Positions 50,254 to 57,445 of a stretch of DNA of 64,000 nucleotides are shown here, piece by piece (position 1 is the first letter of the stretch; each line of letters begins with the position of its first letter). The notes beneath the pieces were generated by a model. That model was given only the letters and a program-made list of their open reading frames with translations. It did no database searches and was not told where the DNA came from. Source of the stretch: a virus. Lineage: Duplodnaviria; Heunggongvirae; Uroviricota; Caudoviricetes. Location: positions 103,998 to 167,997 of the IMG/VR virus record IMGVR_UViG_3300049215_000227; one strand, written 5' to 3'. A program made the translations under genes and the position numbers.

Positions 50254-50327
50254 CCAATTGGCAGAGTCACTTCACTTAAAACGAAGTCAGTAAGGGTTCG
50301 ACTCCCTTAGCTAGCACCAAGCCCCAG
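50254..50327 (+). tRNA. tRNA with anticodon TAA (Leu-type) in a short-variable-arm (type I) scaffold
   Basis: Acceptor GCTAGCT/AGCTAGC, A73 + CCA. Anticodon loop CTTAAAA. 4-5 nt variable region. T-arm AAGGG-TTCGACT-CCCTT. Confidence 0.45.
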
Positions 50328-50331
50328 TAGA

Positions 50332-50405
50332 CCAACTGGAAGAGTCGTCTCTCTCAAAAAGAGAAGGTTGTGAGTTCGAATCTCACTTGGGGCACCAGAT
50401 TTAAG
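50332..50405 (+). tRNA. tRNA with anticodon CAA (Leu-type), type I scaffold
   Basis: Acceptor GCCCCAG/TTGGGGC, A73 + CCA. Anticodon stem TCTCT/AGAGA, loop CTCAAAA. T-arm GTGAG-TTCGAAT-CTCAC. Confidence 0.5.
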
Positions 50406-50428
50406 CCCTACTATGATACAGTTTAAGT

Positions 50429-50860
50429 ATGAAAAATTGTAGTAGATGTGAGCAAGATAAAGAAGAAAAGGACTTTAACAGGAGAGGAAAGAAGTTTTCG
50501 GTTTGGTGTAGAACTTGTTGTTCAGAGTACAACCGCGAGCGCTATAAAAATAGCAACGGAAAAGTACGCAAAAAATTAAAGCAGCAAGAAGCAGCACGCA
50601 AGCTTGAAATAGAAAAGAAAATAGTCGACCATCTCAAAAACAATCCGTGTGTAAAATGCCAAGAATCAAACATTTTAGTTTTGGACTTTGATCATATTCG
50701 TGGCGAGAAAGAGTTTAACATAGCTAAAGCAATATGGGATGTTTACTCTTGGGAAAGAATTGAAAAAGAGATTGCAAAATGTCAAGTGTTGTGTGCTAAC
50801 TGTCATAGAATAAAAACAGCTAAACAACTAAACACTTGGAAATTAAAGTATATCCCATAA
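50429..50860 (+). CDS. HNH homing endonuclease
   Basis: CVKCQESNILVLDFDHIRGEK...CANCH HNH motif. Sits between tRNA arrays. Confidence 0.6.
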   Translation: MKNCSRCEQDKEEKDFNRRGKKFSVWCRTCCSEYNRERYKNSNGKVRKKLKQQEAARKLEIEKKIVDHLKNNPCVKCQESNILVLDFDHIRGEKEFNIAKAIWDVYSWERIEKEIAKCQVLCANCHRIKTAKQLNTWKLKYIP

Positions 50861-50870
50861 AGGAGATTTT

Positions 50871-51224
50871 ATGGGAGTAACTACACGTGAAGCAGATGAA
50901 TGGGCAAGTGGCTGCAGCAAAAGTTCAAGGAGAAATTACGTAAACAATTTTAATCGTAATCAGCCAGCGCATGAGAGAGCAATTTGGGGCCCAATGTCCC
51001 ACGGCAATTCTAGTTCTAAACCCTCTCAAGTCGAAGTAGCGCAGCGCTTGCGTGAACGATTATGTAGATATAAAGGTGTTTACGAAATAGTCATAGAAAC
51101 ACAAGTATGGGGTTTAGAATATCAAATTTTTGAAAAGGAAACTAACAAGTTCATAGGCGGTTATCCCACCCAGGAGATAGCGATGAAAATAGCCAATGAA
51201 CGATTTGACAAAAGAAAAATTTAA
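50871..51224 (+). CDS. hypothetical protein
   Basis: 117 aa. RBS AAGGAGA. Confidence 0.4.
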   Translation: MGVTTREADEWASGCSKSSRRNYVNNFNRNQPAHERAIWGPMSHGNSSSKPSQVEVAQRLRERLCRYKGVYEIVIETQVWGLEYQIFEKETNKFIGGYPTQEIAMKIANERFDKRKI

Positions 51225-51227
51225 CGT

Positions 51228-51295
51228 GGTCCCACCTGTGGATAGGTACTTAGCCTTCTAAGCTGAGGAAGTAGGTTCGACTCCTACTGGGACTA
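51228..51295 (+). tRNA. tRNA-Arg(TCT), compact 68-nt form
   Basis: Acceptor GGTCCCA/TGGGACT, A73 + CCA. Reduced D-arm. Anticodon stem TTAGC/GCTGA, loop CTTCTAA. T-arm GTAGG-TTCGACT-CCTAC. Confidence 0.45.
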
Positions 51296-51299
51296 CCAT

Positions 51300-51373
51300 G
51301 CTCAAGTAACCCAACTGGAAGAGGTACTAGGTCGAGAGCCTAGGTGTTGTGGGTTCGACTCCCACCTTGAGCA
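51300..51373 (+). tRNA. tRNA with anticodon GAG (Leu-type), type I scaffold
   Basis: Acceptor GCTCAAG/CTTGAGC, A73 + CCA. Anticodon stem CTAGG/CCTAG, loop TCGAGAG. T-arm GTGGG-TTCGACT-CCCAC. Confidence 0.45.
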
Positions 51374-51381
51374 CCAAGTTT

Positions 51382-51449
51382 GTCCCCGCCCGAGGATGGG
51401 TCGTTGGTTTCCTAAACCGACAAAGCCGGTTCGACTCCGACCGGGGATA
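51382..51449 (+). tRNA. tRNA-Arg(CCT), compact 68-nt form
   Basis: Aligns position-by-position with 51228..51295. Acceptor GTCCCCG/CGGGGAT, A73 + CCA. Anticodon stem TTGGT/ACCGA, loop TTCCTAA. Confidence 0.45.
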
Positions 51450-51457
51450 CCAGATTT

Positions 51458-51543
51458 GGAGAGTGAACTAGGGAGGTCCCTGGTCTTGTTTGCTAAACAA
51501 TGAGCTCCCGCAAGGGAGTGCGTTTCGAGTACGCCGCTCTCCG
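51458..51543 (+). tRNA. tRNA-Ser(GCT), class II
   Basis: Acceptor GGAGAGT/GCTCTCC, G73 + CCA. D-stem CTAG/CTGG. Anticodon loop TTGCTAA. Long variable arm. Confidence 0.55.
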
Positions 51544-51620
51544 CCATAATTCAACTCACAAGTCGTAAAAATACAGGATCCCTGGAGAGATTTGATTTAC
51601 TCAACTGGTAAAATGTAGCG

Positions 51621-55916: not shown

Positions 55917-55987
55917 GGGGTTATAGCTCAGTGGTAGAGCTACCGGCTCTTAACCGGAAGACCAGTGTTCGATTCACTGTAGCCCCA
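55917..55987 (+). tRNA. tRNA-Lys(CTT)
   Basis: Canonical fold. Acceptor GGGGTTA/TAGCCCC, A73 + CCA. D-arm GCTC-AGTGGTA-GAGC. Anticodon loop CTCTTAA. T-arm CAGTG-TTCGATT-CACTG. Confidence 0.6.
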
Positions 55988-56000
55988 CCAAAGTTTATGT

Positions 56001-56073
56001 GCGCTCGAACGCTTTAATGGATGAGCAGCGGACTTTTAATCCGTGGAAGAGGGCTCGATTCCCTACGGGCGCA
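56001..56073 (+). tRNA. tRNA-Lys(TTT)
   Basis: Acceptor GCGCTCG/CGGGCGC, A73 + CCA. Anticodon stem GCGGA/TCCGT, loop CTTTTAA. T-loop CTCGATT. Confidence 0.5.
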
Positions 56074-56092
56074 CCAATTGTAGAATAGGAGG

Positions 56093-56635
56093 ATGCATAT
56101 GCCAGTTTTGCTTTTAGACTCGACTTATGAACCTCTTAAGGTTATCGGATGGGAAAGGGCTATCTACCTAGTCTTCTCCGGTAAGGCAGAAGTTGTTGAG
56201 GAGTCAGAGAAGGAAGTTAGATCTTCTTCTAAGTCTTGGAAGTTACCGTCGGTCATCAGGCAGTTCGGTAAGTTCAAGCGTAGAGGAGACGTGCAGTTCA
56301 GCCGGATAAACATCTACATGAGAGATGCTTGGACGTGCCAGTACTGCGGTAAGAAGAAGGCTACTAAGGAATTAACCTTCGACCACGTGGTGCCAAGGGC
56401 TCACGGAGGTAAGACCAACTGGACGAACATCGTTACGGCTTGCCGTAGATGCAACGCGTCCAAGGCTGACCAGACGTTGACGCAAGCGCGTATGACTCTG
56501 ATCAGAGAGCCGGTGAAGCCCAAGTGGTTGCCAGCTCAGATGGTTATAAGGATGAAGAGTGTTCCTAAAGAGTGGGAAACTTACATCGATGCAAAGTCGC
56601 TCCTTTACTGGACGACCGAGCTAGAAAGTGGATAG
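56093..56635 (+). CDS. HNH endonuclease
   Basis: CQYCGKKKATKELTFDHVVPRAHGGKTNWTNIVTACRRCNASK. Confidence 0.6.
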   Translation: MHMPVLLLDSTYEPLKVIGWERAIYLVFSGKAEVVEESEKEVRSSSKSWKLPSVIRQFGKFKRRGDVQFSRINIYMRDAWTCQYCGKKKATKELTFDHVVPRAHGGKTNWTNIVTACRRCNASKADQTLTQARMTLIREPVKPKWLPAQMVIRMKSVPKEWETYIDAKSLLYWTTELESG

Positions 56636-57041
56636 GTTTGTGGGTAAGTACTTCGGAAATTTTAGCAACGTTGAAGACGTCAAGTCCTCGTTTTCTAACC
56701 ATGACGAGAACTATGAGAAGCTTAACGACGTTGAACTTAAAGAAGAAGAAGTACTTCTCGCTTCATACGGCGGAGCTGCTTACGAGGGCGACGCCATCGT
56801 GATCTTCGAGAGGGATGGCAAGTTCTACGAAGCTCACGGCTCGCACTGCTCCTGCAACGGACTTGAGGGACAGTGGAGTCCAGAGGAAACGACCATGGAA
56901 GCTTTAGTCTTCAGGCTAGAGAACATGGACAAGTACTCAGTGGAGAGGATGAAGGAAGAGCACGGAGAAGATTTCTACGATGCTTTTAGGCAACTGGTTA
57001 TGTTTGAGATCTTTGAGAGGGAGGTCTTGTTAAAGAATTAA
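56628..57041 (+). CDS. hypothetical protein
   Basis: 137 aa. Confidence 0.4.
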   Translation: MDRFVGKYFGNFSNVEDVKSSFSNHDENYEKLNDVELKEEEVLLASYGGAAYEGDAIVIFERDGKFYEAHGSHCSCNGLEGQWSPEETTMEALVFRLENMDKYSVERMKEEHGEDFYDAFRQLVMFEIFEREVLLKN

Positions 57042-57047
57042 GAGCGC

Positions 57048-57119
57048 GCGCGTGTAATGCTAGTGGTAACATACCTCCTTGCCATGGAGGAATCGCCGGT
57101 TCGATTCCGGCTACGCGCT
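57048..57119 (+). tRNA. tRNA-Gly(GCC)
   Basis: Acceptor GCGCGTG/TACGCGC, T73 + CCA. Anticodon stem CCTCC/GGAGG, loop TTGCCAT. T-arm GCCGG-TTCGATT-CCGGC. Confidence 0.55.
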
Positions 57120-57133
57120 CCAAAATTTGATGT

Positions 57134-57204
57134 TGGGAACTCGTCTAATGGTAGGACAACGGTCTCTGAAGCCGTTAATTGGGGTTCGATTCCCTGGTTC
57201 CCAG
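57134..57204 (+). tRNA. tRNA-Gln(CTG)
   Basis: Acceptor TGGGAAC/GTTCCCA, G73 + CCA. D-arm GTCT-AATGGTA-GGAC. Anticodon stem ACGGT/GCCGT, loop CTCTGAA. Confidence 0.55.
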
Positions 57205-57209
57205 CCAAT

Positions 57210-57281
57210 GCACTAGAAGCATTCGTGGTGATGTACAAGACTTCCAATCTTGACAAGCGAGTTCGACTCTCGCCTAGTGCT
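57210..57281 (+). tRNA. tRNA-Gly(TCC)
   Basis: Acceptor GCACTAG/CTAGTGC, T73 + CCA. D-stem GCAT/ATGT. Anticodon stem CAAGA/TCTTG, loop CTTCCAA. T-arm GCGAG-TTCGACT-CTCGC. Confidence 0.55.
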
Positions 57282-57295
57282 CCAAAATTTAACGT

Positions 57296-57366
57296 TGGGG
57301 ATTCGTCTAATGGTAGGACTGCGGTCTTTGAAGCCGCTAATTGAGGTTCGATTCCTTGATCCCCAG
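57296..57366 (+). tRNA. tRNA-Gln(TTG)
   Basis: Paralog of 57134..57204. Acceptor TGGGGAT/ATCCCCA, G73 + CCA. Anticodon stem GCGGT/GCCGC, loop CTTTGAA. Confidence 0.55.
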
Positions 57367-57371
57367 CCAGT

Positions 57372-57445
57372 GCTTCGGTAGACCAACGGCAGGAGTCGAC
57401 AGTCTTAGAAACTGTACAGTGTGGGTTCGAATCCCACCCGGAGCA
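57372..57445 (+). tRNA. tRNA with anticodon TAG (Leu-type), type I scaffold
   Basis: Acceptor GCTTCGG/CCGGAGC, A73 + CCA. Anticodon stem ACAGT/ACTGT, loop CTTAGAA. T-arm GTGGG-TTCGAAT-CCCAC. Confidence 0.5.

What the first reader, a model, noticed from the sequence alone, without database searches (positions are those of the whole stretch)
50254..57445. Four Leu-anticodon tRNAs (TAA, CAA, GAG, TAG) built on short-variable-arm (type I) scaffolds
Bacterial and phage tRNA-Leu are normally class II with a long variable arm. Here the genes at 50254, 50332, 51300 and 57372 have 4-5 nt variable regions and total lengths of 74 nt. They all keep A73, the main LeuRS identity element, and share a D-arm of the form TAGACCAAyTGGnAGAGTC. 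The Ser and Tyr tRNAs in the same cluster keep their long arms. This points to an unusual solution for leucine decoding, or to recoding by a different synthetase.
Basis: partly seen in the sequence, partly recalled or inferred. Interest (0 to 1): 0.6.

Follow-up and report, generated by a model that had tools for sequence, protein, structure and literature searches.

The report
Short-armed leucine tRNAs in a phage
A ~176-kb phage carries four real leucine tRNA genes that lack the long extra arm textbooks expect, but this short form is common in phages and already known in Streptomyces, so it is a new example and not a new kind of thing.

Summary
ARAGORN and Rfam find four tRNA genes with Leu anticodons UAA, CAA, GAG and UAG. 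Each is 74 nt plus an encoded CCA, with a 5-nt variable loop and A73. Corrections: the first two start at 50243 and 50321, not 50254 and 50332. The quoted D-arm motif is exact in only two of the four. The neighbouring "Tyr" gene is not a canonical long-arm tRNA.

They belong to a widespread family of type I tRNA-Leu. The D-arm motif picks out 89 short Leu-anticodon tRNAs in IMG/VR. In a less biased phage sample, about one third of Leu tRNAs are short. GenBank phages such as KVP40-type Vibrio phages and Cronobacter S13 already annotate them. Actinobacterial chromosomes carry the same scaffold, and in Streptomyces coelicolor a type I tRNA-Leu is leucylated by LeuRS.

The family keeps the bacterial LeuRS identity core (A73, U8-A14, A15-U48, G18G19, T54-A58). 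Its cloverleaf covaries strongly (98% of cells paired, 19 of 20 pairs compensatory). All six Leu codons of the phage RNR align with Leu in distant homologs, so recoding is not supported.

Charging by the unknown host's LeuRS is inferred. E. coli LeuRS failed on the Streptomyces type I tRNA.

Verdict: new member of a known kind, modest interest. A phage-encoded RNase P RNA next to the array may be the more novel feature.

The parts
50243..50319 (+). tRNA-Leu(UAA), type I: 74 nt plus encoded CCA. Loop CUUAAAA, variable loop UCAGU, A73, A15-U48. It has an A31-C39 mismatch that the relative L010 also has.
   Evidence: ARAGORN; Rfam tRNA 51.5 bits; parse; L010 comparison
50321..50397 (+). tRNA-Leu(CAA), type I: 74 nt plus CCA. 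Loop CUCAAAA, variable loop AGGUU, A73, A15-U48. It lies 1 nt after the UAA gene.
   Evidence: ARAGORN; Rfam 55.6 bits; parse
51300..51376 (+). tRNA-Leu(GAG), type I: 74 nt plus CCA. Loop UCGAGAG, with C33 in place of U33. The D-stem is compensated (ACC/GGU), variable loop GUGUU, A73. It reads CUC, the phage's most used Leu codon.
   Evidence: ARAGORN; Rfam 49.7 bits; parse; 95% identical to the L010 copy with compensatory acceptor changes; codon use
57372..57448 (+). tRNA-Leu(UAG), type I: 74 nt plus CCA. Loop CUUAGAA, D-loop AACGGCAGGA, variable loop ACAGU, A73. It lies 2 nt after tRNA-Gln(UUG).
   Evidence: ARAGORN; Rfam 56.2 bits; parse
48468..59194 (+). The surrounding phage tRNA array. 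ARAGORN tRNAs here, all with encoded CCA, and several further tRNA-like genes are present. HNH endonuclease and other small ORFs are interspersed. No class II tRNA-Leu is found in the array.
48726..49029 (+). Context: a reduced (304 nt) bacterial class A RNase P RNA inside the array. It is the likely catalyst for 5' maturation of the closely packed tRNA precursors (inferred).
   Evidence: Rfam RF00010 at 153 bits against a gathering score of 100, full-length model match. The syntenic copy in L010 scores 178 bits and differs by compensatory hairpin changes.

Best explanation
These are four functional leucine tRNAs of a widespread type I (short variable loop) tRNA-Leu family. The family occurs in phages, in bacterial tRNA arrays and on actinobacterial chromosomes. 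The long class II arm is replaced by a 5-nt loop, while the parts that bacterial LeuRS uses for recognition are kept: discriminator A73, the U8-A14 and A15-U48 tertiary pairs, the Leu-type 3-bp D-stem with the AAYUGGNAGA D-loop (G18G19), and T54-A58.

Proposed working, with the status of each step:
1. The genes are transcribed as part of the phage tRNA array (inferred).
2. Their 5' ends are cut by RNase P, possibly using the phage's own RNase P RNA (inferred).
3. They already carry CCA (shown).
4. They are charged with leucine by the host LeuRS (inferred).
5. Together they read all six Leu codons: UAA reads UUA/UUG, CAA reads UUG, GAG reads CUC/CUU, and UAG reads CUA/CUG and possibly more (standard wobble rules).
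6. They thereby supplement or replace host tRNA-Leu during infection (inferred).
For: The gene calls and cloverleaves are.

Family evidence: the D-arm motif hits 108 IMG/VR contigs. Of 92 tRNAs carrying it, 89 have Leu anticodons and all are 74-77 nt. Among 140 parsed homologs, 138 have A73 and 135 have a 5-nt variable loop.

The 89-sequence gap-free alignment has invariant U8, A14, A15, G18, U48, G53, T54, C56 and A58. Its cloverleaf is 98.4% paired, with compensatory changes in 19 of 20 pairs, and 0 of 500 shuffles reach the observed values.

These invariant positions match the E. coli and Aquifex LeuRS identity sets listed in PMC6614811 and PMC2377443. The same D-loop architecture is found in T5's class II tRNA-Leu(UAG), which is 85 nt. 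A class II Leu(UAA) in L156 carries the identical D-arm.

Precedent: S. coelicolor type I tRNA-Leu(CAA) is leucylated by its single LeuRS, with kcat/Km 6.25 against 14.2 for type II. In Aquifex, removing the variable arm mainly lowers affinity.

Solitary chromosomal Leu(CAA/UAA) genes in Actinomycetota carry the same scaffold. Deposited phages annotate 74-77 nt tRNA-Leu genes: KVP40-type V09, Cronobacter S13, Rhodococcus Francesca.

Codon meaning: all six Leu codons of the phage RNR align with Leu in 47-61% of cells, and the consensus is Leu at 34 of 51 positions across 141 homologs of 55% identity or less. This is at least as conserved as other residues.

No class II Leu tRNA is present in the window.
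Against: There are no expression or aminoacylation data for these genes, and the host is unknown.

PMC6614811 reports that E. coli LeuRS and S. purpurogeneiscleroticus LeuRS could not charge the S. coelicolor type I tRNA-Leu(CAA). So acceptance of type I tRNA-Leu is not universal among bacterial LeuRS enzymes.

Several details are atypical: C33 in the GAG gene, an A31-C39 mismatch in the UAA gene, a shifted GG in the UAG D-loop, and A37 rather than G37 in the CUN readers.

Only 64 kb of a ~176-kb genome is visible. A class II tRNA-Leu or a phage LeuRS elsewhere in the genome cannot be excluded.

I did not compare the S. coelicolor tRNA sequence itself. The paper gives its variable loop as ACAGC, ending in C48, whereas the genes here have U48.
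Confidence: 0.8

Rival explanations
1. Recoding. The type I scaffold is charged by a non-leucine synthetase, so some or all Leu codons are read as another amino acid in this phage.
For: LeuRS does not read the anticodon, so a Leu anticodon alone does not prove Leu identity (established knowledge). E. coli LeuRS failed on one type I tRNA-Leu.
Against: All six Leu codons in the phage RNR align mainly with Leu in 141 distant homologs. The LeuRS identity core is invariant across the family. The D-loop is the same as in T5 class II tRNA-Leu. The phage array has tRNAs for most other amino acids but no other candidate for Leu. A type I tRNA-Leu in S. coelicolor accepts leucine.
Confidence: 0.03
2. 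The genes are decayed or non-functional tRNA-like sequences, that is uncharged pseudogenes or decoys, and the host's class II tRNA-Leu does the decoding.
For: There are no expression data. Some atypical features exist: C33, an A31-C39 mismatch and a shifted GG. Other tRNA-like elements in the same array do look non-canonical.
Against: 98.4% of stem cells are paired and 19 of 20 pairs show compensatory change across 89 homologs. The window and L010 copies differ by compensatory substitutions. Tertiary and identity nucleotides are invariant. Rfam scores are 50-56 bits. The isoacceptor set exactly covers the six Leu codons.
Confidence: 0.05
3. The genes are functional Leu tRNAs, but they are charged by a phage-encoded LeuRS located outside the window and not by the host enzyme.
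For: Large phages sometimes encode aminoacyl-tRNA synthetases (established knowledge). Some bacterial LeuRS enzymes reject type I tRNA-Leu. Only 64 kb of ~176 kb is visible.
Against: The largest ORF in the window is 608 aa and is RNR, so no LeuRS lies here. The same type I genes occur in phages of 95-180 kb and in small viral contigs. In Actinomycetota the ordinary cellular LeuRS charges them.
Confidence: 0.07
4. The genes are functional Leu tRNAs, and the loss of the long arm is itself the selected trait. It would make phage tRNA-Leu invisible to host or competitor factors that recognise class II tRNAs, such as tRNA nucleases or toxins. Alternatively it would prevent cross-recognition by SerRS or TyrRS across different hosts. 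This is a claim about why the scaffold is type I and is compatible with the best explanation.
For: Short Leu tRNAs make up about a third of phage Leu tRNAs. The motif is rare in 185,579 cellular genomes (55 loci, many of them in tRNA arrays). At least three different short scaffolds suggest repeated arm loss. Phage tRNAs are known to diverge so as to escape anticodon nucleases (PMC10264068). Human SLFN11 prefers type II tRNAs, as the title of a paper cited in PMC13056530 indicates.
Against: I found no bacterial defence shown to target the long variable arm. The bacterial Schlafen paper reports cleavage in the anticodon arm and says nothing about class II preference. The phage keeps long-arm Ser tRNAs. 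Genome compaction or neutral drift could also explain arm loss.
Confidence: 0.12

Closest known systems
Streptomyces coelicolor type I tRNA-Leu(CAA) (PMC6614811, NAR 2019)
   Same: It is a bacterial-world tRNA-Leu with a 5-nt variable loop. It coexists with a bacterial-type LeuRS that leucylates it. U8-A14 and the G18/G19-T-loop contacts matter for charging. Solitary chromosomal Leu(CAA/UAA) genes in other Actinomycetota carry exactly the D-arm found here.
   Different: In S. coelicolor only the CAA isoacceptor is type I and the rest are class II. Here all four isoacceptors, covering all six codons, are type I and are phage-encoded. In S. coelicolor A73 is dispensable and C74 is critical, and its variable loop ends in C48 (the genes here have U48). 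I did not align the S. coelicolor sequence itself.
Annotated short tRNA-Leu genes of deposited phages (Vibrio phage V09 of the KVP40 species, Cronobacter phages S13 and LPCS28, Rhodococcus phage Francesca, Gordonia phages)
   Same: These are 74-77 nt genes with Leu anticodons and the same D-arm family. They are often in tandem UAA-CAA pairs, as at 50243-50397. S13 aligns over 95% of the tandem pair at 74% identity.
   Different: Those records simply label them tRNA-Leu. I found no paper that comments on the missing arm. This window's phage has no close GenBank relative.
Canonical class II bacterial and phage tRNA-Leu (for example T5 tRNA-Leu(UAG), 85 nt)
   Same: A73, a 3-bp D-stem and a D-loop AAYUGGNAGA with the same register of G18G19. 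The decoding role is the same.
   Different: The class II form has a 13-17 nt variable arm forming a hairpin. It has G9 and G13 where the type I family has A9 and C13.
Animal mitochondrial type I tRNA-Leu (for example human mt-tRNA-Leu(UUR))
   Same: A short variable loop with Leu identity, charged by a bacterial-type (mitochondrial) LeuRS. Human mt-LeuRS also charges the S. coelicolor type I tRNA.
   Different: Mitochondrial tRNAs have degenerate cores. ScoLeuRS does not charge hmt-tRNA-Leu. The phage genes have fully canonical D-loop and T-loop elements.

Membership tests
tRNA (Rfam RF00005) | Score above the curated gathering threshold on the tRNA covariance model | tested here: met
   51.5, 55.6, 49.7 and 56.2 bits against a gathering score of 29. 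ARAGORN calls all four.
tRNA (Rfam RF00005) | Cloverleaf maintained by compensatory substitutions among homologs | tested here: met
   89 sequences: 98.4% of cells paired, 19 of 20 pairs with changes on both sides, 0 of 500 shuffles reach the observed values, and slid controls give 31-44% paired.
Bacterial tRNA-Leu (LeuRS identity set) | Discriminator A73 | tested here: met
   All four genes, and 138 of 140 family members.
Bacterial tRNA-Leu (LeuRS identity set) | Tertiary core: U8-A14, A15-U48 Levitt pair, G18G19 with U55C56, and T54-A58 (as listed in PMC6614811 and PMC2377443) | tested here: met
   U8, A14, A15, G18, U48, G53, T54, C56 and A58 are invariant in alignment A1. Within the window, only the four Leu genes combine A73, A15-U48 and the AAYNGG D-loop. 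In the UAG gene the GG sits one position earlier.
Bacterial tRNA-Leu (LeuRS identity set) | Class II architecture: a long variable arm of more than 10 nt | tested here: not met
   All four have 5-nt variable loops. They are therefore not canonical class II tRNA-Leu.
Bacterial tRNA-Leu (LeuRS identity set) | Leucylation by LeuRS | not testable with these tools
   This needs aminoacylation assays. The indirect evidence is that the Leu codons behave as Leu.
Type I tRNA-Leu (Streptomyces/actinobacterial and phage family) | Leu anticodon on a scaffold with a 4-5 nt variable loop | tested here: met
Type I tRNA-Leu (Streptomyces/actinobacterial and phage family) | Sequence homology to other members (shared D-arm, full-length alignment) | tested here: met
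   The motif recovers 89 viral and 41 cellular short Leu tRNAs. blastn aligns the tandem pair to the S13 tRNA-Leu pair. The S. coelicolor gene itself was not aligned.
Standard genetic code for Leu codons in this phage | Positions encoded by UUR and CUN correspond to Leu in distant homologs | tested here: met
   RNR against 141 representatives: 47-61% Leu for each of the six codons, and a Leu consensus at 34 of 51 positions.

The most novel reading that the evidence does not exclude
Loss of the long variable arm in phage tRNA-Leu is an adaptive counter-defence or host-independence trait that has evolved repeatedly. Type I Leu tRNAs would remain chargeable by LeuRS through the A73 and tertiary-core identity. 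At the same time they would escape host or rival-phage factors that recognise class II tRNAs. This phage would show the strategy taken to completion: all six Leu codons served by type I tRNAs only, alongside its own RNase P RNA.
Probability: 0.12. Interest if true: 0.65.

Novelty: new member of a known kind. Interest (0 to 1): 0.3.

Why it matters
The rule that bacterial and phage tRNA-Leu is always class II is wrong often enough to matter. Roughly a third of Leu tRNAs in a sample of phage tRNA clusters lack the long arm, and this phage covers all six Leu codons with them.

This raises a concrete, testable question about LeuRS recognition. E. coli LeuRS rejected the Streptomyces type I tRNA-Leu, yet phages of Cronobacter and Vibrio carry conserved type I Leu genes.

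It also bears on how annotation pipelines and isotype models treat phage tRNAs. And it offers natural short Leu scaffolds for tRNA engineering.

For this particular window, however, the genes are an ordinary example of that family.

Tried and rejected
- Megablast of 49000-53000 against GenBank phages found nothing, so close relatives had to come from IMG/VR.
- Ten literature searches found the S. coelicolor paper but no paper describing type I tRNA-Leu in phages. They also found nothing on KVP40 tRNA-Leu and nothing on phage-encoded RNase P RNA.
- Schlafen lead: the bacterial Schlafen paper and the eLife paper on anticodon-loop mutations say nothing about variable arms or class II preference. 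The defence-evasion idea therefore stays speculative.
- Recoding was tested and rejected through codon-to-residue correspondence in RNR. I did not use the NAMPT homologs for this, because they are close relatives likely to share the same tRNAs, which would make the test circular.
- I first thought C33 was a peculiarity of the type I GAG gene. It is in fact a general trait of phage tRNAs with G34 anticodons.
- A 15-mer scan for further RNase P RNA copies gave 53 hits, but nhmmer matched only L010, so the rest were chance.
- Provenance look-up gave only run accessions and no host. The host remains unknown.
- T5 was checked as a possible model with type I Leu. Its tRNA-Leu is class II.

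
Full report
**Observation.** ARAGORN finds 31 tRNA genes in the window. They include tRNA-Leu(taa) at 50243-50319, tRNA-Leu(caa) at 50321-50397, tRNA-Leu(gag) at 51300-51376 and tRNA-Leu(tag) at 57372-57448. Rfam's tRNA model scores them at 49.7-56.2 bits against a gathering score of 29. Parsing each gene gives a 7-bp acceptor stem, U8-A9, a 3-bp D-stem around an 11-nt D-loop, a 5-bp anticodon stem, a 7-nt loop with the stated anticodon, a 5-nt variable loop, a 5-bp T-stem, A73 and an encoded CCA. That is 74 nt without CCA.

Four details need correcting. 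The first two genes begin at 50243 and 50321, not 50254 and 50332. The quoted D-arm consensus is exact only in the UAA and CAA genes: the GAG gene has a compensated D-stem and the UAG gene has the D-loop AACGGCAGGA. The Ser tRNAs are class II, but the 'Tyr' element at 50148-50237 is not canonical (see the end of this report). No class II tRNA-Leu is present in the window.

**Context.** The window is part of a large phage genome. Genes run almost entirely on one strand. PHROG and Pfam hits include NAMPT, RtcB, DNA ligase, RNR, thymidylate synthase, RNase H, a head-maturation/ClpP-like protease, DenV-like glycosylase and HNH endonucleases between the tRNAs. The NAMPT protein is identical to one on a 176,504-bp metagenomic contig. 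A 71%-identical homolog sits on the 176,837-bp IMG/VR contig that gave locus L010. No GenBank phage is close, and the best RtcB match is 57% identical. The host is unknown.

**What the genes are.** Of the 92 ARAGORN tRNAs that carry it, 89 have Leu anticodons (UAA 42, UAG 20, CAA 17, GAG 10), and all are 74-77 nt. Across 140 short Leu tRNAs that I could parse, 138 have A73 and 135 have a 5-nt variable loop. An 89-sequence alignment that includes the four window genes needs no gaps. U8, A14, A15, G18, A35, U48, G53, T54, C56 and A58 are invariant in it.

On that alignment the type I cloverleaf is 98.4% paired. Nineteen of 20 pairs show changes on both sides. No shuffle out of 500 reaches the observed values, and sliding the partners drops pairing to 31-44%. 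The closest relative, L010, has a Leu(GAG) that is 95% identical and differs through compensatory acceptor-stem changes. Its UAA and CAA copies differ from the window's by compensatory changes in the acceptor, anticodon and T stems. These are functional tRNAs under purifying selection, not pseudogenes.

**Leucine identity.** The invariant nucleotides are those listed as LeuRS identity elements for E. coli and Aquifex: A73, A14 with U8, the A15-U48 Levitt pair, G18G19 with U55C56, and U54-A58 (PMC6614811; PMC2377443). Within the window, only the four Leu genes combine A73, A15-U48 and the AAYNGG D-loop. Across the viral loci the D-loop AAYUGGNAGA occurs in 113 of 162 short Leu tRNAs and in 0-4 tRNAs of any other isotype. 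T5's class II tRNA-Leu(UAG) (85 nt, annotated as active as a suppressor derivative) has the same D-loop architecture, G-AACUGGUAGA-C. A Thermoleophilia class II Leu(UAA) carries exactly the type I D-arm (L156). The simplest reading is that these are Leu tRNAs whose long arm has been replaced by a 5-nt loop.

**Test of recoding.** I aligned the phage RNR (608 aa, 52 Leu codons) to 141 diverse representatives of 55% identity or less. At the positions the phage encodes with TTA, TTG, CTT, CTC, CTA or CTG, the homologs have Leu in 47-61% of cells. The consensus is Leu at 34 of 51 positions and otherwise mostly Ile or Val. Other amino acids are conserved at 32-53%. All six codons therefore mean leucine. 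CTC, read by the GAG tRNA, is the phage's most frequent Leu codon.

**How unusual is it?** It is not unusual for phages. GenBank phages already annotate such genes. Cronobacter phage S13 has a tandem pair of 74-nt tRNA-Leu genes that aligns to the window's UAA-CAA pair. The KVP40-species Vibrio phage V09 has two 77-nt tRNA-Leu genes next to an 89-nt tRNA-Ser. Rhodococcus and Gordonia phages have a short Leu(CAA).

For a less biased estimate I used 120 IMG/VR loci selected by an isotype-agnostic T-arm/CCA motif, which hold 643 tRNAs. Among the 60 Leu tRNAs that did not themselves carry the selecting motif, 21 are 78 nt or shorter and 39 are 80 nt or longer. The short ones fall into at least three different D-arm scaffolds, which suggests repeated loss of the arm. 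This sample is not random, and lengths come from ARAGORN calls, so 'about a third' is a rough figure.

In 185,579 cellular genomes the motif occurs in only 55 loci. Some are solitary Leu(CAA) or Leu(UAA) genes on Actinomycetota chromosomes. Others lie inside dense tRNA arrays in Myxococcota and other MAGs.

The actinobacterial case has been characterised. S. coelicolor has one type I tRNA-Leu(CAA), and its single LeuRS leucylates it with about half the efficiency of type II (PMC6614811). I found no paper that notes the phage distribution.

**Mechanism and its weak point.** Shown: gene structure, conservation, identity nucleotides, encoded CCA, codon meaning and full coverage of the Leu codon box. 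Inferred: transcription within the array, 5' processing by RNase P, and leucylation by the host LeuRS.

The last step is the main uncertainty. The same paper reports that E. coli LeuRS and one Streptomyces LeuRS could not charge the S. coelicolor type I tRNA. In Aquifex, deleting the arm mainly reduced affinity. Conserved type I Leu genes in phages of Cronobacter and Vibrio imply that gammaproteobacterial enzymes can use at least some type I scaffolds, but this is untested. A phage-encoded LeuRS is not in the window, where the largest ORF is the 608-aa RNR. It cannot be excluded for the remaining ~112 kb of the genome.

Why phages favour the short form is unknown. The candidates are compaction, avoidance of cross-recognition by enzymes that read long arms, or escape from factors that target class II tRNAs. 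None of these is supported by direct evidence.

**Verdict.** The finding is real and correctly described in its essentials. It is a new member of a known kind: type I tRNA-Leu, already characterised in Streptomyces and already annotated in many phages. The recoding idea is not supported. Interest is modest. The residual open question is LeuRS compatibility and the reason for arm loss.

**Other features seen.**
- A 304-nt bacterial class A RNase P RNA lies inside the array at 48726-49029 (153 bits, full-length model match with a conserved core). It is conserved at the syntenic site of L010 (178 bits) with compensatory hairpin changes. It is absent from GenBank phages by blastn and from all 340 other loci fetched. 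My phrase searches found no literature on it.
- The Tyr-like element at 50148-50237 keeps a GUA anticodon and shows two compensatory anticodon-stem changes against L010. But it has only 8 nt where the D-arm should be, and these pair with the extra region.
- A 93-nt class II-like tRNA with anticodon UAU and A73 lies at 30397-30489. ATA is rare, and its three RNR positions align with Ile/Val.
- C33 in the Leu(GAG) gene is part of a general enrichment of C33 in phage tRNAs with G34 anticodons.

Noticed in passing
window 48726-49029 (+); L010 837-1139 (-): A reduced (~304 nt) bacterial class A RNase P RNA sits inside the phage tRNA array, between tRNA-Asn and tRNA-Ser. Rfam gives 153 bits against a gathering score of 100, with a full-length model match and a conserved P4 core. 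The 176.8-kb relative has a syntenic copy (178 bits) that differs by compensatory changes in several hairpins. There is no blastn match in GenBank phages, no other copy among the 340 loci fetched, and no paper found with phrases such as 'phage-encoded RNase P'. This may be more novel than the finding I was given.
   Followed up: partly
ARAGORN does not call it, and it reaches only 21 bits on the tRNA-Sec model. It has the anticodon arm GCCGG-CUGUAAC-CCGGU (GUA), A73 and CCA. Only 8 nt (UCCCUACG) stand where the D-arm should be, and these pair with CGUAGGG in a 27-nt extra region, followed by a GG-containing segment. The T-stem is bulged. It is conserved in L010, with two compensatory changes in the anticodon stem. 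Whether it is an atypical architecture or a decaying gene is unresolved.
   Followed up: partly
window 30397-30489 (+): A 93-nt class II-like tRNA lies far from the array. It has an acceptor stem, a short D hairpin, the anticodon loop CUUAUAA (UAU, Ile AUA), a 7-bp variable-arm hairpin, a T-arm, A73 and CCA. ARAGORN calls it tRNA-Ile(tat). Rfam gives only 29.5 bits on the tRNA-Sec model (E 5.6e-4) and nothing at gathering threshold. So a long-arm tRNA with an Ile anticodon sits in a phage whose Leu tRNAs are short-armed. ATA is rare (3.9 per 1000), and its 3 RNR positions align with Ile/Val.
   Followed up: partly
window 51300-51376 (anticodon loop UCGAGAG); family-wide in viral and genome loci: The Leu(GAG) gene has C33 instead of the near-universal U33. 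Among 1659 unique phage and array tRNAs, C33 occurs in 6%. It is concentrated in G34 anticodons: Leu-GAG 15/37, Val-GAC 5/15, Pro-GGG 3/9, Ile-GAU 13/50, Gly-GCC 5/25, and also Glu-CUC 6/23. It is about 0-1% in Leu-UAA, Leu-CAA and Leu-UAG.
   Followed up: partly
window 51226-51299, 51378-51453, 52814-52888, 58024-58080 (+): These tRNA-like genes are missed by ARAGORN. Two flank Leu(GAG), have UCU and CCU (Arg) anticodons and appear to have 6-bp anticodon stems; the first scores 31 bits on tRNA-Sec, and the second was identified only by eye and by MFE folding. The third is a Glu(UUC)-like gene at 30.5 bits. The fourth is a partial tRNA match at 36 bits. ARAGORN's tRNA-Met call at 21167-21245 has no Rfam support at gathering threshold.
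   Followed up: no
window 49763-50140, 60199-60702, 22734-23939 (+): Translation-related protein genes accompany the array: an RF-1-domain protein of 125 aa (ArfB/peptidyl-tRNA-hydrolase-like, 54 bits), a peptide deformylase (144 bits) and an RtcB RNA ligase. Together with the near-complete tRNA set and the RNase P RNA, this phage invests heavily in translation.
   Followed up: no
window 50243-50319 and L010 Leu(UAA): The A31-C39 mismatch at the bottom of the anticodon stem of Leu(UAA) is present in both the window and the relative, although the rest of the stem has changed by compensation.
   Followed up: no
L156 (Thermoleophilia MAG); L174, L187, L195, L199, L202, L257 (IMG/VR): A class II Leu(UAA) of 86 nt carries exactly the type I D-arm TAGACCAACTGGCAGAGTC. 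Separately, other short Leu tRNAs use a class II-like D-arm (TGRCGGAATTGGYATACGY) or a distinct CAA scaffold (TGGACAAATTGGWAAAGTC). This suggests several independent losses of the long arm.
   Followed up: no
L070 6074-6566 (-), L106 5523-6015 (-): GOLLD RNA (161 bits against a gathering score of 150), with an embedded tRNA, lies in two IMG/VR phage loci that also carry a type I Leu(GAG).
   Followed up: no
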